From a virus (taxonomy: Duplodnaviria > Heunggongvirae > Uroviricota > Caudoviricetes), in the IMG/VR virus record IMGVR_UViG_3300037067_027627: 25,868 bases of DNA, one strand, 5' to 3'. Below are positions 4,436 to 25,482 of this stretch, piece by piece; position 1 is the stretch's first letter, and each line of letters begins with the position of its first letter. The notes beneath the pieces were generated by a model. That model ran no database searches. It was not told the origin of the DNA and saw only the letters and a program-made list of their open reading frames with translations. A program made the position numbers and the translations under genes.

Positions 4436-5316
4436 TGCAATCCCTTCCTGATCTCTTCTACCCGATCCTGATAGTAGCTGAACAACTTCCGTTCTGGAGC
4501 AGAACAGTTGTGCTTCTTGCACTCGATTTTTACGTATTCTGCCACACGCGGCATTGCTTTGCCAACATCAAAGAAATCATTTCCGAGATCCGCATATACC
4601 TTTTCCACACTCCCAAAGACCTCGCTATCTGGAAGTGAAGGGAGAAGTATCCGCGCATTTTCAGGATCTTCAGCGCGCGGTACTTTCTCGTACTTGGGTG
4701 TGTCGTTCTTCTCCTTGAAGTAAATCCAGTCAGCCCCGTTCACGTACTTGCCCACAGTGCCCTCGCGGTGCAGTTCTACGGTCTTTTTTAGCATCTGATC
4801 GCGGAACTGCATCAGAGACTCAAGATCGTTCAACCGGGTCGTTCCAAGCAGGTCTACAATGGGTATCTTGTGATGATAGCATTCCTGAAACACCTTGGTA
4901 TAATGGAAAAACCCTCCAAGTTTCGCAGACCAGATATCAAACACAATAAATGAGTGATCATCGTGAGTCTCGATCTTTGTAGGAGATTTCCCTTTTATCA
5001 GAAGTTCTCCGAATACCATATACGCGTCGTTCCAGTTTTCTGCATCTTTCAGGAGTTCGATCACATTCACGAACTGCGGGGTCATCTTGAAATAGTTATG
5101 AAACTGATCCGAAGCAACGTCCATATTGCGGCTGCGCGCATGCCAATTCCCGTCTGCATCAAGATACACCCCAAAGTTGCTTCCGTCATACTTGAGCGTC
5201 CACACGACTTCCTTTCCCAGAAGTATATGGGGGTTCGGATGCAGTTGTGATATACGATCAAGATCCGGGTATTTTACTTTTGTTGGGTCTATAACCCACC
5301 GTGTTGGTTCATCCAT
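4432..5316 (-). CDS. ATP-dependent RNA ligase, Rnl2-like nucleotidyltransferase
   Basis: Motif I TLKYDGSN, motif III VFGELL, IIIa FIVFDIW, IV REGTVGK, V YFKEK. No OB domain as in DNA ligases; the helical C-terminal tail resembles that of Rnl2. GGTGA SD. Confidence 0.83.
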   Translation of the reverse strand: MDEPTRWVIDPTKVKYPDLDRISQLHPNPHILLGKEVVWTLKYDGSNFGVYLDADGNWHARSRNMDVASDQFHNYFKMTPQFVNVIELLKDAENWNDAYMVFGELLIKGKSPTKIETHDDHSFIVFDIWSAKLGGFFHYTKVFQECYHHKIPIVDLLGTTRLNDLESLMQFRDQMLKKTVELHREGTVGKYVNGADWIYFKEKNDTPKYEKVPRAEDPENARILLPSLPDSEVFGSVEKVYADLGNDFFDVGKAMPRVAEYVKIECKKHNCSAPERKLFSYYQDRVEEIRKGLQ

Positions 5317-11038: not shown

Positions 11039-12496
11039 TCACACTACTGCTTGCACAATCCTTCTGCGCGCGTCCTCAAACGTGGTTGTATTCTTCTCAA
11101 TTCCTATGAACTTTCTCACAGTGAGCTTGGACGCTATTCCATACGTTCCAGTTCCCATGAACGGATCGCAAACCACATCTCCGGGTTTGCTGAACGCATC
11201 TACCAGCGGAAGAATCTCTTCCACAGACTGCTGCCACTCATGTTCTGTCTTCTCGCGCCCGCTTCCCTCAACAAGATCGTTATACATCTTGTATGGTTTA
11301 TGAATCGGACTCTTCATCCCAATAATGATCGGCTTAAACCCGTTCATTGCACCAACATGGTGCATTGCTGCAAGATGCCCTTTATGCGCAAGCGCGCATT
11401 CGTGATAAAACTCCAACGCTTCGTCTTTGAAATCGGATTTACACTGCGCAAATCCTTCAAACACTTCCGGGAGCCGCACGTGTCCTACAACCATTATCAT
11501 AACTCCGCCGGGTTTGAGTATACGATTAAACACGCTCATGCACGGGGCGATGTTTTCCTTCCACTCATCCACATACGGGACATCGGTGAGAACAAGATCT
11601 ACGGAGTCGTCTGTGATGGACGATTCATACTCGAAAAAGTCGTCATTTACGAGTACCATCGTATCCGGAAGTTTCTTGGCTTCCTCTGCAAGTGCATTAA
11701 ACTCGTCACGCTGCTTCTCGCGCGTTGTCAAAGCCGTGCCTTCTTTCACAGTTTTGATCATACCGCCTTTGATTTTTGTGATGACAGACCGCTGCTCAGA
11801 AGGAGTGAGTTTGATAAGACGAAGAAGTTCAGCTTTGTTGTCTGCGATATCCATTCCGCGAATAAGCTCACGAACCTCCCCGTCTATACCGGTAGCAATC
11901 TGCATACGATACTGAACGTCACGTTCTCCCATTCCCATTTCGTGAGCTATATTTTTCGTAGTAACTTTCTGGCTTGGTTTCTTCTTTGTGGTGGTGAACG
12001 TTTGTTCACCACCATTTTCGATCTCTACAAGTTGGTCGCCGTTGGTTACGTGCTGGTTGTCCCCGCGCTTTGCTCTTTCTCCAAGCGCTGTCAATAACTG
12101 ATCTCTGCGTTTTAGATGTTCTCCTTCCTCAAGCACGGTCAGGTTATGACGAAGAAGATTCTCGTCTATTGTAACAAGCTCGTTTAGAATATCGTCTGCC
12201 GGTATAATTTCGGCTTTGATCTCTTTCCACCCGAGAGCCCTAGCAGCAGCAAGCCTGTGGTTTCCAGCGACAAGAACCATATCCGAGGTTACAGTAATAG
12301 CATGATGAAGTCCGATGAGTTTCATACTCCCGGTAAGCATCTGAATCTTTTCCGGACTCATCTTCCGTTTGAGTGTTTTGGGAAGAACGATGTCGTCTAT
12401 AGGGATTATAATCTCTCTACACGCAGGAAGATTCGCCCACGATGGAACGTCTTCGTCAGCACCCGTGGTTTTTACCTCTATTTTATTTTTAACCAT
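11039..12496 (-). CDS. ParB-N domain fused to a beta-class DNA methyltransferase
   Basis: ParB-N: LHHAITV...LVAGNHRLAAARALGWKEI, DENLLRHNL. MTase: DLVLTDVPY (motif IV), VVCDPFMGTGT (motif I). Start either ATG 12496 or GTG 12517. Confidence 0.9.
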   Translation of the reverse strand: MVKNKIEVKTTGADEDVPSWANLPACREIIIPIDDIVLPKTLKRKMSPEKIQMLTGSMKLIGLHHAITVTSDMVLVAGNHRLAAARALGWKEIKAEIIPADDILNELVTIDENLLRHNLTVLEEGEHLKRRDQLLTALGERAKRGDNQHVTNGDQLVEIENGGEQTFTTTKKKPSQKVTTKNIAHEMGMGERDVQYRMQIATGIDGEVRELIRGMDIADNKAELLRLIKLTPSEQRSVITKIKGGMIKTVKEGTALTTREKQRDEFNALAEEAKKLPDTMVLVNDDFFEYESSITDDSVDLVLTDVPYVDEWKENIAPCMSVFNRILKPGGVMIMVVGHVRLPEVFEGFAQCKSDFKDEALEFYHECALAHKGHLAAMHHVGAMNGFKPIIIGMKSPIHKPYKMYNDLVEGSGREKTEHEWQQSVEEILPLVDAFSKPGDVVCDPFMGTGTYGIASKLTVRKFIGIEKNTTTFEDARRRIVQAVV

Positions 12497-12577
12497 AACC
12501 CATCTACCCTCAGACACAATGTGTACACTGTTTTGTTTGTAAACACCGTGTGTGGTATAAGTTTAAAAAGAGATGCA

Positions 12578-20968: not shown

Positions 20969-22276
20969 GTGATTCGATATATCCACAACCGTTGGAGAAG
21001 CGCTATGGTAGATAAAGTTAAAGATATTAATCTTGACGAGTTTGTTCAGATGGTTCTTGACCACGACGACGAACTTGCAAAACAGGTATCGGCAAGTGAA
21101 CTGGACGCAACATCAATCATCGGGAAGGCAAAGCCCGGGATTGACCGGTATGGTGTTGCAACAGGTGTGGCATATGCAATTGCTCGCCTGAAAGAAGCTG
21201 TTCTTGAAGCGAATTCCGAGAGTCTGAAAGGACTTCTTGTTGGTCAGCGGGATATGTTCGGAACTAATGCTCCGATTCGTATGCCAGTTCTCAGTTCCAA
21301 GGGAGATCACTCCGAGGTAGTGAACTGGGGTAGCACCGTCAAGTGCGGAGACAACAAGATCGAGATTCCATTCCCGTGCATAGCGAACCTGAAAGTTCTG
21401 CATGACGGGGACTACAAGGGTGTTCCGAATATCCGCGTTGTGTCTGTAGAAAAGTACGAGAATATAAGCATCCCGGATACGATTCTCAGGCTTGGAAAGA
21501 TCGCGAAGCGTGCAGGTGATCTCAGCGGAGCAGATGAACTCAGTGTCGTTGTAGTGCGCGGCAAAATCTCGTATATCGCACCTGCAACCCGGTGGAAGGG
21601 CAAGGAGAAGGACGGATCATGGAACCTTTGGATGCCCAACCAGAGAGACAACCCGGTGAGCCACCCGGTTATGCAGATCAGTCTCGAAAACGAGAACAAC
21701 AACACGGTTCGTGCGGTTTTCGGTCGGCAGCGCATTGCAATCCCCACGATTGCAGTGGAAGACTTTGCAGATCTTTGTCTTGATGCATCGAAGACAATGA
21801 GCGACCCCATCGAACAGGCACGATTCTTTGGAGAGATTTTCAGAGGACGCGAAGTTATTATCGTCGGGTTCATGACGAAATACAACCCGCAGCCCGAGAT
21901 CAACTACATCGAGATCGGTGCATACGCCATCTTCGATGCGAATGTTGGTAAGTCAGAGCCCGCAGAATCACACGCGGATAAACCAACAAAGAAAGTGTCA
22001 AAGCCAGATCCCAAACCATCAACAGATGATGAGGATCAGGACGACGAACCAGCACCAGAAGAGAAAAAGAAGTCGTCTCCTAAGAAATCTGACGCGAAGC
22101 AGAAAGAAGGCACTGGCAGCGTAGAGAAACTCAAGGAGAAGATTCGTCAGTACTGCGAAGTTCTTGATATCAAGGTTGGAGACCTCACACCAGAGAAGGT
22201 AATCGACAACCTCGCAAGGGACAAGAGCAAAGGGTTCGTGATCGAAGTTCTCGAAGAGATGAAGAAAGAAGAGTAG
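20969..22276 (+). CDS. Putative tandem OB-fold ssDNA-binding protein with a charged, disordered C-terminal tail
   Basis: Beta-rich segments (VVVVRGKISYI, GREVIIVGFM...IEIGAYAIF), D/E/K/P tail, position ahead of the SSAP and helicase genes. Start GTG 20969 or ATG 21005. Confidence 0.55.
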   Translation: MIRYIHNRWRSAMVDKVKDINLDEFVQMVLDHDDELAKQVSASELDATSIIGKAKPGIDRYGVATGVAYAIARLKEAVLEANSESLKGLLVGQRDMFGTNAPIRMPVLSSKGDHSEVVNWGSTVKCGDNKIEIPFPCIANLKVLHDGDYKGVPNIRVVSVEKYENISIPDTILRLGKIAKRAGDLSGADELSVVVVRGKISYIAPATRWKGKEKDGSWNLWMPNQRDNPVSHPVMQISLENENNNTVRAVFGRQRIAIPTIAVEDFADLCLDASKTMSDPIEQARFFGEIFRGREVIIVGFMTKYNPQPEINYIEIGAYAIFDANVGKSEPAESHADKPTKKVSKPDPKPSTDDEDQDDEPAPEEKKKSSPKKSDAKQKEGTGSVEKLKEKIRQYCEVLDIKVGDLTPEKVIDNLARDKSKGFVIEVLEEMKKEE

Positions 22277-22286
22277 GTGCCCAAGA

Positions 22287-22910
22287 ATGGCACCAATTTT
22301 TGACAAATCCCGACTTACATCGGACGAGTTCAAGAAATATATCTACGAGATCCCTTTCAAGAACAAGGGCGGGGGCGTGAAGAAAGTAAAAGGCATGACT
22401 GCCGCAGGTTACATTCATGCAATTCACCCGCACCTTAGATCTATCAAGTCAGAGGTTATTTCTCATGGAACCGTAGGCGCACGGAACATACTTGCGTGTG
22501 TTGTAAAAGTTACGGTAACAATATCTCCAGATCTCGATCACCCGGATCGGGTTGTTATGATCGAAGGGCTGGCAGATGGGGATTTGACCGGGGTTCCGTC
22601 TGCGGATACACTTGTCAGAACAGTAGAGACACGGGCTCTCAACCGAGCGCTAGGGCGTGTGCTTGATGTTTCGAATGCAGACCTGAATAATCCTGATGGA
22701 GAACCAGACGAAGAAGAATCCGGGACTCCTGTGTATAGACCGTCTCCATTTGCAGAGAAAATGATCGAACGCAAGGAAAAGACAGAGGCCGAACGCAAGC
22801 GTCTTGCGGAATTAGAGGGTTCGAGTGATGATAAAACCAATCCGGGGCGACTACCTGATAACACGGGATCCGAAGCCAAGGAAGGTTCATCAGAAAAAGA
22901 CGATTGGTAA
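22287..22910 (+). CDS. Rad52/Rad22-like single-strand annealing protein
   Basis: CVVKVTVTI...IEGLADG...VRTVETRALNRALG resembles the Rad52-like SSAP core; acidic C-terminal tail. Confidence 0.62.
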   Translation: MAPIFDKSRLTSDEFKKYIYEIPFKNKGGGVKKVKGMTAAGYIHAIHPHLRSIKSEVISHGTVGARNILACVVKVTVTISPDLDHPDRVVMIEGLADGDLTGVPSADTLVRTVETRALNRALGRVLDVSNADLNNPDGEPDEEESGTPVYRPSPFAEKMIERKEKTEAERKRLAELEGSSDDKTNPGRLPDNTGSEAKEGSSEKDDW

Positions 22911-22962
22911 GAGGGTTGAAAAACCCCTTACCAAATTGTTACGAAACCGTGGTGTAAAGAGA

Positions 22963-25482
22963 ATGTCCGTTTCTATAAATCGATGGAGTGCGCATCCATA
23001 TTTCTTCATAAATGGCGATCTCGATTTTCGTGTTATAAAAGCATTGACACGCGAGATGAGCTTCTATGTAGAAGGATTCGAGCGCACGAAGAAGTATAAG
23101 GAAGGGAGATGGGATGGTACAGAGTGTTTACTGTACAAGTCAAAGAAAGGTGTATATTTCTTCCCGGTCGGGATGCTTGACAAAGTGAAGCAGATATTCG
23201 GAGATTTCGAAGTAGAATACTTTGTTCAGGATATTCAGTTGAAAGACGTTCAGAAGAACTACAAGCAACTTGATCTGAAATGGACTGGGTATACCCTTCG
23301 TGATTACCAGACAAAATCTGTGATGACAATCAAAAACAACGGTGGGGGAACGATCAACCTTCCAACTGGTGCCGGGAAGACATTGATCATGATACGACTC
23401 ATGTACGAGTACAATCTTCCATGCCTTGTCATAGTTCATACGAAGGAGCTTTTGTACCAGTGGGAGAAAAACATCAAGACATACTTGAACGGGCGATGTC
23501 CGGGTCTTATTGGGGATGGGAATATGAGTTTCGACCCCATCACTGTTGCAATGATGCAAACGTTATCCCAGAAGATCGTAAAAGACAAGATGGAGAATCT
23601 GGATTATCCGATTCTCATGATCGACGAGTGCTTCCCGTACAACACCGAGATCATAACTGAAAGTGGGGTTATGAAGATTGGAGACATAGTTCGTGGGAAA
23701 CTCGAAGTAAAGGTTCTGACTCATACCGGGCAATTCAAGCGGGTTGTGGGATGGTATGAGAAACCGGTTGTAAAGAATATGGTTCGTGTAACCCACGAAC
23801 GTGGATCGTTTGAATGCACAGAGGATCACAAGATACTCACTGACATAGGGTGGGTTAGAGCAAAGTATTTGGTCTGCGGGAGCGTAGTGTATAATTACAA
23901 TGACATTCACGCAGAATACAGACGTTGTTCGATGCAAAACATGCGGGAAGGAGTTCCCAACATATCAGGCGTTGGGAGGTCATGTGAATGTGGTTCACAA
24001 ACATCCAGAAATACAGAAGGTGCGTGGAATGCGGTATGTCGCACTTCGCACTCCGGAACGGGATTCGAAGAGAACCGAGAAGTTCTTAGAAACAACGAAG
24101 TCAAAACTGGGAACCGTTTCTCTAACGGATACCCAGTATCAGATGGTACTGGGAAGCTTATTAGGAGATATGAACATTGGATACGCGAATTCACGAAGCC
24201 GGTTTCCGAGGTTGAGAATAGTTCACGGTTCGAAACAGTCAGAGTATGTTCAGTGGAAATACTCGGTGTTGCAGAATATCGTGAAAACTTCTCCAAAAAC
24301 TACGAAGAACGGGGGGTTTGGGGATTTTCAGACATGGTTCAACACACAGAGTCTCCCATGCTTGGTTCCGATTTACAATCTCGTAATGACAAACAACGGA
24401 AGAAAAACAATCACCAAGGAATGGTTGAGTCAGATATCAAGCCCTGCGGCTCTTGCGACATGGTTCATGGACGATGGAGGTCATACGGGGAAGACATTGA
24501 CGTTTTCTCTTGGGAGGGTATCTCCGATGGAAGCTATTACAATATCAGAATGGTTAAAAAACAGGTGGGGGGTTCAGTCCATGATATACAATCGGACGAA
24601 GCAATGGGTTCTTGTGATAATGCGGAAGCAGGAAGTGAAGAATTTCTTGGATCTGATCAAACCATACGTGATACCAACGATGGAATACAAGATGGACACT
24701 CTGTATTCGATATAACAGTAGAAGACGATCACTCGTATACTGCGAACGGGATTGTGGTAAGTAATTGTCATCGTGCTCCGGCTGATACGGCATATCTTGT
24801 TGCTATGCACTGTAACGCTCCGGTTCGTATAGGAGCTAGTGCAACCCCAACCCGAACCGATGGTGCTCAGATTAAGATATGGGCGTGCTGCGGGGAGATC
24901 AAGTCTACGATCACAGCGGCTGAGTTGATAGAACGTGGCATACTTGCGAAGCCAGAATTCGTGTTTCTCAACCCTCCGCCGGTATACTGCGGGAAACGAT
25001 CTCACTATTCCGATGTATACCTGCAAGGTATAGTTATAAACGAAGGGCGCAATGCACTGGTTATAAAGAAAGCAACCGAATACGCATCGGCTGGAAATAT
25101 CGTATACATTCATGTCGAACGGGTTGATCACGGGGAGATGCTGAAAGAACGTATACCCGGGTCTGTATTTCTAAGTGGGAAGGATGGGACAACCGTGCGG
25201 CAGGGTGTGCTAAAGAAATTCGCAAAAGGCGAAATCAAAGTTCTTGTGTCAACACTTTTGAAAGAAGGTGTAGACATACCGGTAATGAACGTGTTTATTG
25301 CAGCGGGTGCCGGGAAATCGCCAATCGGAGTAATTCAGAAAGCAGGTCGTGCGCTTCGGGTTGCTCCCGGGAAAACAACTGCGATCATTGTGGATTTCCG
25401 TGATAGTGGACGGTATCTGGGAGATCACTGGTCGGATAGATACAACATATACAAGGCTACATTCGGGGAATATTGCCCATAA
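22963..25482 (+). CDS. SF2 DExH helicase (UvsW/XPB-like) interrupted by an intein; about 460 aa after splicing
   Basis: Q motif LRDYQ, motif I LPTGAGKT, motif II IDE|CH split by the intein, motif III GASATP, motif V LKEGVDIP, motif VI IQKAGRALR. The ORF track start at 22825 overlaps the SSAP gene; ATG 22963 is more plausible. Confidence 0.92.
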   Translation: MSVSINRWSAHPYFFINGDLDFRVIKALTREMSFYVEGFERTKKYKEGRWDGTECLLYKSKKGVYFFPVGMLDKVKQIFGDFEVEYFVQDIQLKDVQKNYKQLDLKWTGYTLRDYQTKSVMTIKNNGGGTINLPTGAGKTLIMIRLMYEYNLPCLVIVHTKELLYQWEKNIKTYLNGRCPGLIGDGNMSFDPITVAMMQTLSQKIVKDKMENLDYPILMIDECFPYNTEIITESGVMKIGDIVRGKLEVKVLTHTGQFKRVVGWYEKPVVKNMVRVTHERGSFECTEDHKILTDIGWVRAKYLVCGSVVYNYNDIHAEYRRCSMQNMREGVPNISGVGRSCECGSQTSRNTEGAWNAVCRTSHSGTGFEENREVLRNNEVKTGNRFSNGYPVSDGTGKLIRRYEHWIREFTKPVSEVENSSRFETVRVCSVEILGVAEYRENFSKNYEERGVWGFSDMVQHTESPMLGSDLQSRNDKQRKKNNHQGMVESDIKPCGSCDMVHGRWRSYGEDIDVFSWEGISDGSYYNIRMVKKQVGGSVHDIQSDEAMGSCDNAEAGSEEFLGSDQTIRDTNDGIQDGHSVFDITVEDDHSYTANGIVVSNCHRAPADTAYLVAMHCNAPVRIGASATPTRTDGAQIKIWACCGEIKSTITAAELIERGILAKPEFVFLNPPPVYCGKRSHYSDVYLQGIVINEGRNALVIKKATEYASAGNIVYIHVERVDHGEMLKERIPGSVFLSGKDGTTVRQGVLKKFAKGEIKVLVSTLLKEGVDIPVMNVFIAAGAGKSPIGVIQKAGRALRVAPGKTTAIIVDFRDSGRYLGDHWSDRYNIYKATFGEYCP
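23629..24765 (+). mobile_element. Intein (379 aa) in helicase motif II
   Basis: Block A CFPYNTEIIT, block B FECTEDHKILT (TxxH), block F VFDITVEDDHSY, block G ANGIVVSN followed by a Cys +1 nucleophile. Removal restores DE-CH. Confidence 0.95.
23900..24715 (+). CDS. C2H2 zinc finger + two-motif LAGLIDADG homing endonuclease, nested in the +1 frame of the intein
   Basis: CKTCGKEFPTYQALGGHVNVVH; first motif QMVLGSLLGDMNI; HGSKQSEYVQWK; second motif ALATWFMDDGG; C-terminal IKPYVIPTMEYKM. These match the LAGLIDADG_2-type family. Confidence 0.9.
   Translation: MTFTQNTDVVRCKTCGKEFPTYQALGGHVNVVHKHPEIQKVRGMRYVALRTPERDSKRTEKFLETTKSKLGTVSLTDTQYQMVLGSLLGDMNIGYANSRSRFPRLRIVHGSKQSEYVQWKYSVLQNIVKTSPKTTKNGGFGDFQTWFNTQSLPCLVPIYNLVMTNNGRKTITKEWLSQISSPAALATWFMDDGGHTGKTLTFSLGRVSPMEAITISEWLKNRWGVQSMIYNRTKQWVLVIMRKQEVKNFLDLIKPYVIPTMEYKMDTLYSI

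What the first reader, a model, noticed from the sequence alone, without database searches (positions are those of the whole stretch)
23629..24765. Dual-coded intein: homing endonuclease hidden as a separate +1-frame ORF inside a helicase intein
Seen: the intein frame has intact splicing blocks at both ends, but its central ~270 codons have no recognisable domain. The +1 frame over the same bases (ATG 23900 to TAA 24715) encodes a complete C2H2 + LAGLIDADG nuclease. That frame is closed by TAG at 23885-23887 just upstream of its ATG, and its stop falls inside intein block F. Both frames are stop-free for about 272 codons. If the intein frame were a random by-product, about a dozen stops would be expected (rough estimate at ~5% per codon), so two compensating sequencing errors or neutral decay do not explain it. 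Known: canonical inteins carry the endonuclease in-frame between blocks B and F. Inference: the nuclease is expressed independently of splicing, by internal initiation, an internal transcript or programmed frameshifting, which would decouple homing from host-protein expression. I cannot check whether this architecture already has published precedent.
Basis: partly seen in the sequence, partly recalled or inferred. Interest (0 to 1): 0.92.

Follow-up and report, generated by a model that had tools for sequence, protein, structure and literature searches.

The report
Helicase intein with out-of-frame homing endonuclease
A viral helicase gene carries a self-splicing intein whose DNA-cutting "homing" enzyme is a separate gene read one base out of step through the same DNA; the layout is real and kept by selection, but it was described recently in other genes, so this is a new example rather than a new principle.

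Summary
The UvsW-like helicase ORF (22963-25482) holds a 379-codon intein (23629-24765) in motif II (DE|CH). A 271-codon ORF in the +1 frame (23900-24715) encodes a C2H2 finger plus an I-SceI-like LAGLIDADG_2 nuclease.

The intein frame has no stop across the overlap, where 12-15 are expected (0 of 20,000 resamplings reached zero). Nine helicase loci at 36-84% extein identity keep both frames open, so sequencing error is excluded. Substitutions move to the nuclease's wobble position exactly within the overlap.

AlphaFold2 folds the nuclease frame well. The intein frame folds as a HINT domain plus two disordered linkers.

The expression route is not shown. A frameshift is unlikely and initiation at the ORF's own ATG is most likely.

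The architecture has precedent: Gorbalenya 1998 as cited, the cyanobacterial dnaX intein (bioRxiv 2026) and actinophage inteins (bioRxiv 2025). This scan has also met split-intein versions at the same helicase site on other DNA.

New here:
- the same +1 layout in four host gene families;
- coexisting nuclease-bearing and mini-intein alleles;
- a possible HINT strand encoded inside the nuclease ORF.

The parts
22963..25482 (+). UvsW-like SF2 helicase gene with intein. The ORF is open from GTG 22825; the likelier start is ATG 22963, preceded by a GGTG Shine-Dalgarno-like motif.
   Evidence: Pfam ResIII 6.9e-20, Helicase_C 1.6e-08, UvsW_N 7e-4. The database protein P0011 has 839 aa, matching a start at 22963.
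22963..23628 (+). N-extein, ending in helicase motif II ...MIDE
   Evidence: 79% aa identity to L007, with substitutions concentrated at codon position 3 (0.50), which indicates purifying selection. Junction.
23629..23907 (+). Intein N-terminal splicing domain (residues 1-93; Cys1, block B TEDH)
   Evidence: AF2 pLDDT 82-92. 92% aa identity to L007. Conserved in 15 relatives.
23885..23887 (+). TAG that closes the +1 (nuclease) frame just upstream of its ATG
23888..23899 (+). A/T-rich 12 nt before the nuclease ATG (GTATAATTACA-like), with no GGTG or GGAGG Shine-Dalgarno motif. A similar A/T-rich stretch precedes the ATG in relatives.
   Evidence: seven helicase-type loci; other genes of the window carry GGTG
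23900..24715 (+). Homing endonuclease ORF in the +1 frame, 271 codons. C2H2 zinc finger at residues 11-33 (23930-23998). I-SceI-like double LAGLIDADG core at residues 77-265 (24128-24694).
   Evidence: Pfam LAGLIDADG_2 2.6e-30 and zf-C2H2_6 1.6e-08. AF2 mean pLDDT 81, core 85-95. Foldseek top hits I-WcaI 6X1J at 1.1e-15 and I-SceI 1R7M. D90 and D191/D192 are invariant.
23908..24222 (+). Intein-frame linker 1 (residues 94-198). It is the -1 reading of the nuclease N-terminal part, has no stop and is predicted disordered.
   Evidence: pLDDT 27-32; poorly conserved
24223..24291 (+). Intein-frame 'island' (residues 199-221, SRFETVRVCSVEIL...), a candidate penultimate HINT beta-strand. The same bases encode the conserved nuclease motif HGSKQSEYVQWKYSVL.
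   Evidence: AF2 strand 201-212 at pLDDT 70-78. 132 residues superpose on the 139-residue Mtu RecA mini-intein, more than the 119 that the N and C parts supply. A similar segment is kept in nuclease-less mini-inteins. The sequence is also a by-product of the nuclease motif in free-standing homologues.
24292..24687 (+). Intein-frame linker 2 (residues 222-353), with no stop and predicted disordered
   Evidence: pLDDT 29-39
24688..24765 (+). Intein C-terminal splicing region (blocks F and G, ending ...VVSN)
   Evidence: pLDDT 63-90; conserved; the next residue is Cys
24766..25482 (+). C-extein, starting CHRAP (the rest of motif II)
   Evidence: 82% aa identity to L007, position-3 substitution rate 0.57

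Best explanation
This is a contiguous class-1 intein in motif II (DE|CH) of the UvsW-like helicase of a large, probably archaeal, virus. A free-standing-type homing endonuclease gene is nested in it in the +1 reading frame. The nuclease has a C2H2 finger and an I-SceI-like LAGLIDADG_2 core.

Shown:
- Both frames are intact here and in relatives.
- Within the overlap, purifying selection acts on the nuclease protein.
- Within the overlap, the intein frame is kept free of stops by avoiding T at the nuclease wobble position.
- The splicing domains and the exteins are under their own purifying selection.

Inferred:
- The helicase precursor is translated straight through the overlap. The overlap yields two long disordered linkers, and possibly one short strand that completes the HINT fold. 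The intein then splices itself out.
- The nuclease is made separately, at a low level, from its own ATG at 23900 on the helicase message.
- It cuts intein-less helicase alleles at the DE|CH junction and so drives copying of the whole intein-plus-nuclease unit.
- The layout most likely arose when a free-standing nuclease gene invaded a mini-intein. The +1 phase is the one in which every stop in the host frame can be removed by a silent NNT-to-NNC change in the nuclease.
For: Anatomy and domains.

Stop avoidance:
- 0 stops observed against 12.4-15.5 expected; 0 of 20,000 resamplings reached zero.
- 0 of 66 at-risk wobble bases are T, against 58 of 204 elsewhere.
- Nuclease position 3 is G-enriched and T-depleted relative to the window's other genes (p = 7e-5).
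- Natural control: 97 free-standing homologues carry 8.1 stops per 100 codons in that frame, and none has zero.

Conservation:
- L007, L008, L009, L010, L012, L089, L169/L170 and L174 all keep a 264-277-codon nuclease ORF inside an open helicase-intein ORF.
- About 28 further protein clusters carry 346-403-residue inteins at the same site with no in-frame nuclease domain.

Selection, window against L007 (2520 nt, no gaps, 77% identical):
- Substitution rates at host codon positions 1/2/3 are 0.18/0.10/0.50 in the N-extein and 0.16/0.08/0.57 in the C-extein.
- In the overlap they are 0.32/0.13/0.11.
- 84 changes are silent in the nuclease frame only and 28 in the intein frame only.
- The nuclease is 80% identical, against 62% for the intein frame over the same bases.

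Structure:
- Nuclease pLDDT 81, matching I-WcaI and I-SceI.
- The intein frame folds as HINT (Z 19.8 to the Mtu RecA mini-intein) with linkers below pLDDT 35.

Origin: the nearest nuclease relatives include free-standing genes in virus-like contigs.

Mobility:
- An empty DE|CH site exists in a helicase with 87% extein identity (L173).
- Nuclease-bearing and mini-intein alleles coexist with 99.9% and 98.6% identical flanks.

Own start: the nuclease frame is closed 0-9 codons upstream of the ATG in the helicase-type loci.
Against:
- The nuclease ATG has no GGTG-type ribosome-binding motif like the window's other genes, and no promoter-like site was found. Initiation there is therefore inferred only.
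- The penultimate intein residue is Ser, not the usual His.
- A 260-residue mostly disordered insert inside a HINT domain might slow or impair splicing.
- The window-L007 comparison is a single pair, and no formal overlapping-gene dN/dS model was run.
Confidence: 0.82

Rival explanations
1. Artefact: this is a canonical in-frame LAGLIDADG intein broken by two compensating sequencing or assembly indels near 23890 and 24715.
For: In-frame LAGLIDADG_2 inteins do exist, including one at the same helicase site (P0097). Raw reads were not available.
Against: - Nine independent assemblies at 36-84% extein identity show the same two frames.
- The intein frame is stop-free against an expectation of 12-15 stops.
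- The nuclease frame is closed by a stop just before its ATG.
- The window and L007 align over 2520 nt without a single gap.
Confidence: 0.01
2. Relic: the +1 ORF is a nuclease gene that no longer functions. It is intact only because it is young or because the host frame shields it, and the intein now persists vertically as an oversized mini-intein.
For: - Homing cycles predict decay.
- A related terminase intein in a Bathyarchaeia MAG contig (L175) has one stop in the nuclease frame while the intein frame is open.
- Nuclease-less mini-inteins exist at the same site.
Against: - Substitutions in the overlap are concentrated at the nuclease wobble position, and nuclease identity is 80% against 62% for the other frame.
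- The catalytic Asp residues and both LAGLIDADG motifs are invariant down to 36% identity.
- The ORF is intact in all nine helicase loci.
- Selection on the host frame does not protect the +1 frame from stops.
Confidence: 0.07
3. Recoding: the nuclease is made by programmed +1 frameshifting from the helicase-intein frame. This would give an N-extein/intein-N/nuclease fusion rather than an independent protein.
For: The two ORFs are on one strand and the nuclease start lacks a clear ribosome-binding site.
Against: - The +1 frame carries TAG four codons before the ATG here, and a TAG directly abuts the ATG in L089. A shift would therefore have to occur inside a 0-12 nt space.
- No slippery run is visible in 23888-23900.
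- An ATG is conserved at the same place in the helicase-type loci (L008 also has an earlier in-frame GTG), and free-standing homologues begin with the same zinc finger.
Confidence: 0.04
4. Non-splicing insertion: the element stays in the mature helicase as a tolerated loop, as proposed for the ShiLan out-of-frame HNH insertion in a phage methylase.
For: The ShiLan precedent (PMC11855218). The penultimate His is missing.
Against: - The insert sits inside catalytic motif II (DE|CH).
- Cys1, TxxH, the terminal Asn and the +1 Cys are all present.
- The N splicing domain is more conserved (92%) than the exteins (79-82%).
- The model superposes on solved mini-inteins at Z 19.8.
Confidence: 0.03

Closest known systems
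Cyanobacterial DnaX intein with an out-of-frame LAGLIDADG homing endonuclease (Phillips, DeSimone & Gogarten, bioRxiv 10.64898/2026.09.14.751524; first proposed by Gorbalenya 1998, as cited there)
   Same: - A contiguous intein whose frame stays open across the nuclease.
- A LAGLIDADG nuclease in a shifted frame on the same strand.
- The in-frame stretch is predicted disordered.
- Purifying selection sits on the nuclease frame and is relaxed in the host frame.
- The best structural match is I-WcaI (6X1J) in both cases.
- Mini-intein and empty alleles coexist.
- A secondary invasion of a mini-intein is proposed.
   Different: - The host gene here is a viral UvsW-like helicase, motif II, not bacterial dnaX.
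- The host is a probable archaeal virus.
- This nuclease carries an N-terminal C2H2 finger and has close free-standing relatives, whereas the preprint could not find a source.
- The same layout recurs in three more host gene families.
- A possible HINT strand lies inside the overlap.
- Whether the dnaX nuclease is a close relative, or sits in the same phase, was not tested here.
Non-canonical actinobacteriophage inteins (Gosselin, Arsenault & Gogarten, bioRxiv 10.1101/2025.01.02.630785)
   Same: - Phage inteins whose nuclease is encoded in another frame or strand.
- The in-frame region has no recognisable fold.
- Origin by invasion of a free-standing nuclease gene is proposed.
- The authors predict that annotation pipelines miss such genes. 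Here the +1 ORF is indeed absent from the protein database.
   Different: Their same-strand out-of-frame case is an endonuclease VII-like gene in frame 3, and their LAGLIDADG and VSR cases are antisense. Their hosts are terminase, DNA polymerase, minor capsid and thymidylate synthase genes.
Fractured genes: split inteins with a free-standing nuclease gene between the halves (Dassa et al. 2009, PMC2677866), and this scan's earlier notes on split helicase inteins at DE|CH with an overlapping LAGLIDADG gene
   Same: A free-standing-type nuclease gene sits between the N and C splicing parts. In the scan's T1-like phage cases the insertion site is the same helicase motif II.
   Different: Here the intein is one continuous ORF in all nine DNA loci. 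Splicing would therefore be in cis, not in trans.
Canonical LAGLIDADG inteins (such as PI-SceI and PI-PfuI) and in-frame LAGLIDADG_2 inteins such as P0097
   Same: The same HINT splicing blocks, and the nuclease lies at the same topological place between block B and block F. P0097 uses the same DE|C site.
   Different: In those the nuclease is in frame and is part of the intein polypeptide. P0097 also keeps a separate penultimate strand downstream of the nuclease, which this intein lacks.
I-SceI / I-WcaI (monomeric LAGLIDADG_2 intron-encoded endonucleases)
   Same: The fold matches (Foldseek E 1e-15, target TM-score 0.78). It has two LAGLIDADG motifs; the second motif here reads WFMDDGGH. From my memory of I-SceI, not checked here, that motif is almost the same in I-SceI.
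   Different: This one is nested in an intein rather than in a group I intron, and has an extra C2H2 finger and about 40 further residues at the N terminus.
ShiLan out-of-frame HNH insertion in a phage methylase (Arsenault et al. 2025, PMC11855218)
   Same: A hidden nuclease ORF in another frame of an insertion that keeps the host ORF open.
   Different: ShiLan has no splicing domains. This element has a complete HINT domain.

Membership tests
Class-1 intein (HINT splicing domain) | Nucleophile Cys/Ser at position 1 and Cys/Ser/Thr at +1 of the C-extein | tested here: met
   Cys at 23629 and Cys at 24766
Class-1 intein (HINT splicing domain) | Block B TxxH, and C-terminal blocks F and G ending in Asn | tested here: met
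   TEDH, VFDITVEDDHSY and NGIVVSN are present. T64, H67 and H368 are invariant and N379 nearly invariant across the 15 relatives. The penultimate residue is Ser rather than His.
Class-1 intein (HINT splicing domain) | HINT fold | tested here: met
   The AF2 model superposes on the Mtu RecA mini-intein with Z 19.8, rmsd 1.7 and 132 of 139 residues. This is a predicted model, not a solved structure.
Class-1 intein (HINT splicing domain) | Protein splicing activity | not testable with these tools
   Inferred from purifying selection on the splicing domain (92% identity) and from the position inside catalytic motif II.
LAGLIDADG_2 (I-SceI-like) homing endonuclease | Family profile match above the curated threshold | tested here: met
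   PF03161, 106 bits against a cut-off of 25
LAGLIDADG_2 (I-SceI-like) homing endonuclease | Two LAGLIDADG helices, each with a catalytic acidic residue, in one chain | tested here: met
   LGSLLGDM (D90) and WFMDDGG (D191/D192) are invariant in six relatives. The model shows two alpha-beta-beta-alpha-beta-beta-alpha halves and matches I-SceI and I-WcaI.
LAGLIDADG_2 (I-SceI-like) homing endonuclease | Site-specific cleavage of the intein-less allele | not testable with these tools
   A natural empty allele with a near-identical junction exists (L173).
Non-canonical intein with an out-of-frame, same-strand nuclease gene (dnaX type) | The intein ORF is continuous across the nuclease ORF, which has its own start and stop in another frame | tested here: met
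   also in eight related helicase loci
Non-canonical intein with an out-of-frame, same-strand nuclease gene (dnaX type) | Selection on the nuclease frame and relaxed protein constraint on the host frame in the overlap | tested here: met
   Codon-position switch and 80% against 62% identity. One close pair only; no formal dN/dS model.
Non-canonical intein with an out-of-frame, same-strand nuclease gene (dnaX type) | The in-frame reading of the overlap has no folded nuclease domain | tested here: met
   No Pfam domain. pLDDT is below 35 except for a 23-residue island.
Split intein / fractured gene | The N and C intein halves lie on separate ORFs | tested here: not met
   There is a single ORF from 22825 to 25482 with no stop. 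The same holds in the relatives.
Canonical intein with an in-frame endonuclease | The endonuclease domain is translated in the intein frame | tested here: not met
   The nuclease is only in the +1 frame.
Programmed ribosomal frameshift gene | An open path from the upstream frame into the shifted frame, with a slippery site | tested here: not met
   A stop closes the +1 frame 0-9 codons before the ATG, and in L089 it directly abuts the ATG. No slippery run is visible.

The most novel reading that the evidence does not exclude
The overlap may be more than a nuclease gene threaded through a junk linker.

1. About 45-70 nt (24223-24291) could be bifunctional. In the nuclease frame they encode the invariant KQxEYVxWKY motif. 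In the intein frame they encode the penultimate HINT beta-strand (RVCSVEIL). That strand is retained when the nuclease is later deleted to give mini-inteins.
2. The +1 phase may be a general rule. It is the only phase in which every host-frame stop can be removed by a silent NNT-to-NNC change. This would explain why I-SceI-like nucleases sit in the same phase in inteins of four unrelated host genes: UvsW-like helicase, large terminase, Hel308-like helicase and UvrD-like helicase.
Probability: 0.35. Interest if true: 0.7.

Novelty: new member of a known kind. Interest (0 to 1): 0.5.

Why it matters
- It adds a well-supported viral example to a class of "non-canonical" inteins so far documented only in two preprints and a 1998 prediction. 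Comparative evidence covers nine diverged helicase loci.
- It suggests the class is wider than reported. At least 22 metagenomic loci in four host gene families carry it, all missed by gene callers.
- It offers natural material for testing how a nuclease nested in another gene is translated.
- It also offers material for testing how a HINT domain splices across about 260 mostly disordered residues.
- Nuclease-bearing, mini-intein and empty alleles in near-identical backgrounds allow a test of whether the homing cycle runs through them.
- For annotation, long helicase or terminase inteins "without a nuclease domain" should be checked in the +1 frame.

Tried and rejected
- Whole-genome tools: no genome is held for this window.
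- DNA search of the helicase against cultured phages found nothing.
- A protein search of the nuclease against phage records gave only matches under 30% identity.
- The search for related loci with the whole helicase in viral contigs found no relative. The nuclease alignment worked instead.
- The sigma-70 promoter scan found no site at the nuclease start. The perfect TATAAT at 23890-23895 lies only 4 nt from the ATG and is not conserved as such in relatives, so I dropped it as evidence for an internal promoter.
- Profile-profile alignment of whole mini-inteins against full inteins returned only the N-terminal domain. A second run on the linker alone matched the island at E = 0.0044 over 13 columns, which is weak.
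- Conservation of the island as proof of intein-frame function was rejected. The same -1-frame peptide pattern appears in 26 of 41 free-standing homologues as a by-product of the nuclease motif.
- A single origin of the dual-coded state is not supported. The nuclease tree needs at least 2-4 changes of state, and free-standing genes are interleaved with the dual-coded ones (quick tree, midpoint root only).
- DNA for P0014 and P0015 could not be fetched. P0003 is not on record.
- The genome-collection scan did not bring in cyanobacterial dnaX among its best 80 loci, so kinship and phase relative to the dnaX nuclease remain untested.
Full report
**1. What is in the sequence**

The window holds one long ORF, open from 22825 to 25482. 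Its likely start is ATG 22963, behind a GGTG motif, which gives the 839-residue protein found in the database as P0011. Pfam identifies an SF2 helicase with ResIII, Helicase_C and a weak UvsW N-terminal domain.

Motif II is interrupted after ...MIDE by 379 codons (23629-24765). These start with Cys, contain TEDH (block B), and end in VFDITVEDDHSY...NGIVVSN, followed by CHRAP.

The +1 frame carries nine stops between 23654 and 23887. It is then open from ATG 23900 to TAA 24713-24715, and closes again at 24719 and 24758. That ORF scores 106 bits on LAGLIDADG_2 and 34.7 bits on zf-C2H2_6.

**2. Is it more than chance?**

I kept the nuclease protein fixed and redrew synonymous codons in three ways: from the window's codon usage, from the ORF's own usage, and by permuting its own codons.
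- The intein frame then carries 15.5, 12.7 and 12.4 stops on average.
- It reached zero in none of 20,000 draws under any of the three schemes.

A stop in the intein frame arises only when a nuclease codon ending in T is followed by AAN, AGN or GAN.
- None of the 66 codons so placed ends in T, against 58 of 204 elsewhere.
- Nuclease third positions are G-rich and T-poor compared with the window's other genes (p = 7e-5).

As a natural control I used 97 free-standing homologues from metagenomes and viral contigs. They carry 8.1 stops per 100 codons in that frame, and none has zero.

**3. Relatives**

The nuclease ORF itself is absent from the protein database, because gene callers report only the helicase. 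Searching with the helicase gave a family of 826-875-residue proteins that align across the whole intein.

Where DNA could be fetched, both frames are open. The loci are L007 (76% identical protein), L008 and L174 (56%), and L009, L010, L012, L089 and L169/L170 (about 36-40%). Independent assemblies this far diverged exclude a pair of sequencing errors.

Scanning with the nuclease alignment returned 168 loci in all.
- 22, the window included, have the nuclease inside a longer ORF.
- That ORF is always in the frame that makes the nuclease +1.
- 36 have the nuclease in frame with a long protein.
- 97 are free-standing.

The enclosing ORFs are UvsW-like helicases, large terminases, Hel308-like helicases with an HhH domain, and UvrD-like helicases. 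Each has Intein_splicing hits that span the nuclease.

**4. Which frame is under selection?**

The window and L007 align over 2520 nt without a gap, at 77% identity.

| Region | Substitution rate at host codon positions 1 / 2 / 3 |
|---|---|
| N-extein | 0.18 / 0.10 / 0.50 |
| N splicing domain | 0.04 / 0.04 / 0.44 |
| C-extein | 0.16 / 0.08 / 0.57 |
| Overlap | 0.32 / 0.13 / 0.11 |

In the overlap the variable position is the nuclease's wobble base.
- 84 changes are silent only in the nuclease frame, 28 only in the intein frame and 37 in neither.
- The nuclease is 80% identical, against 62% for the intein frame over the same bases.

The nuclease protein is therefore conserved, while the intein frame is mainly kept open. 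Both LAGLIDADG motifs and the acidic residues D90 and D191/D192 are invariant down to free-standing relatives at 36% identity.

**5. Structure predictions**

- The nuclease frame folds with mean pLDDT 81, and 85-95 in the core. Its best matches are I-WcaI (6X1J, E 1.1e-15) and I-SceI.
- The intein frame gives pLDDT 82-92 for residues 1-93 and 63-90 for residues 354-379.
- Residues 94-191 and 222-353 score below 35.
- A short island at 199-221 scores 70-78, with a strand at 201-212.
- With the low-confidence parts trimmed, the model superposes on the 139-residue Mtu RecA mini-intein over 132 residues (Z 19.8, rmsd 1.7). The N and C parts supply only 119 residues, so the island is part of the superposed HINT fold.

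**6. The island**

The island (SRFETVRVCSVEIL) is the -1 reading of the invariant nuclease motif HGSKQSEYVQWKY. The same peptide pattern appears in the -1 frame of 26 of 41 free-standing homologues. Its conservation alone therefore proves nothing for the intein.

Two observations point towards a role.
- This intein has no room for the usual penultimate HINT strand between the nuclease stop and block F. The in-frame relative P0097 keeps such a strand downstream of its nuclease.
- Nuclease-less mini-inteins at the same site (131-143 residues) carry, just before block F, a segment such as SIFRPSGVCRVDIS. This is close to the islands of full-length relatives, for example SLFRPSRVCAVEIL in P0027. 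It is the single best profile match of the mini-intein linker within the overlap region (E = 0.0044, 13 columns).

I rate this a lead, not a result.

**7. Signs of mobility and turnover**

- A helicase with 87% extein identity (P0019, locus L173) has an empty DE|CH site. On the 3' side its junction differs from the window's spliced junction at five of 30 bases. It carries a different, in-frame intein 24 residues downstream.
- P0035 (403-residue intein with the nuclease ORF) and P0037 (143-residue mini-intein) have identical exteins. At the DNA level 955 nt upstream are 99.9% identical and 789 nt downstream are 98.6% identical. In between, 860 nt are replaced by 80 unrelated nt.
- A terminase-type example in a contig binned with a Bathyarchaeia MAG has one stop in the nuclease frame while the intein frame stays open. 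That looks like the first step of decay.
- On a quick maximum-likelihood tree the dual-coded nucleases group by host gene. Free-standing genes are interleaved in the window's own clade (support 99), and at least two changes of state are forced.

**8. How the nuclease is expressed**

This is inference only.
- The nuclease frame is closed 0-9 codons before the ATG in the helicase-type loci. In L089 a TAG abuts the ATG. An ATG is conserved at the same place, although L008 also has an earlier in-frame GTG. The N terminus is the same zinc finger as in free-standing relatives. This argues against frameshifting and for initiation at the ORF's own ATG.
- The 12-15 nt before the ATG are A/T-rich in all loci but lack the GGTG motif seen before other genes of the window. 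That would fit weak translation.
- No sigma-70-type promoter was predicted. The element looks archaeal, with GGTG motifs and TTTATATA-like boxes. Earlier notes of this scan on the same genome reached the same view.

**9. Comparison with what is known**

The architecture is not new.
- The cyanobacterial dnaX intein has just been described with an out-of-frame LAGLIDADG gene, a disordered in-frame stretch, frame-dependent selection, the same I-WcaI structural match, and coexisting full, mini and empty alleles. That preprint credits Gorbalenya (1998) with the first proposal.
[quoted passage not shown] It predicts that many more are overlooked.
- A peer-reviewed paper describes an out-of-frame HNH gene in a non-splicing insertion.
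- This scan's earlier notes describe split-intein versions at the same helicase DE|CH site in T1-like phages. Here the intein is contiguous.

I therefore file this as a new member of a known kind. Three additions are worth following: the breadth across host genes always in the +1 phase, the allele series, and the possible bifunctional island.

**10. Limits**

- No reads, transcripts, peptides or assays were available.
- The selection analysis rests on one close pair.
- The AF2 alignments were shallow (15 and 6 sequences).
- The tree was a quick search with a midpoint root.
- Relatedness to the dnaX nuclease was not tested.

Noticed in passing
L013, L014, L091-L093, L117 (terminase); L094, L095, L097, L106, L040 (Hel308-like); L077, L133, L146 (UvrD-like): The same layout occurs in three other host gene families of viral and metagenomic contigs: an I-SceI-like nuclease ORF in the +1 frame of a contiguous intein. 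These nucleases lack the zinc finger, and several have longer C-terminal tails.
   Followed up: partly
L169:1501-4104 against L171:1501-3324: Two alleles of one helicase have identical exteins. One has a 403-residue intein with the nuclease ORF and the other a 143-residue mini-intein. An 860-nt segment is replaced by 80 unrelated nt between flanks that are 99.9% and 98.6% identical.
   Followed up: yes
L173:501-3341 (P0019); also P0021, P0047, P0060, P0080: There is a second intein insertion site about 24 residues downstream of DE|CH in the same helicase family. It holds an in-frame LAGLIDADG_3 intein or a mini-intein, while the DE|CH site is empty.
   Followed up: partly
L175:2287-4155: A contig binned with a Candidatus Bathyarchaeia MAG has a terminase-type dual-coded intein. 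Its nuclease frame has a single stop in the KQ motif while the intein frame is open. This may be early nuclease decay, and it is a weak hint at the host group.
   Followed up: partly
window 11051-12097 (+), opposite 11039-12517 (-): A 348-codon ORF lies antisense to the ParB-like/N6_N4 methyltransferase fusion gene. It has no Pfam match and was not examined further.
   Followed up: no
window, upstream of starts at 5316, 13530, 17342, 22287, 22963; also near 2181 and 18877: GGTG(A) motifs lie 5-10 nt before many start codons, and TTTATATA or TTAATATA boxes lie before others. This fits an archaeal host, as earlier notes on this genome also concluded.
   Followed up: partly
window 20969-22910 and L007, L008, L169: Two genes upstream of the helicase (435 and 207 residues, with no Pfam or PHROG match) are syntenic in the related contigs. 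This is a conserved replication-module neighbourhood of unknown function.
   Followed up: no
L008:6196-6628: A TnpB/Cas12f-like (OrfB_IS605) gene lies about 1.5 kb downstream of the helicase on the related 122-kb contig.
   Followed up: no
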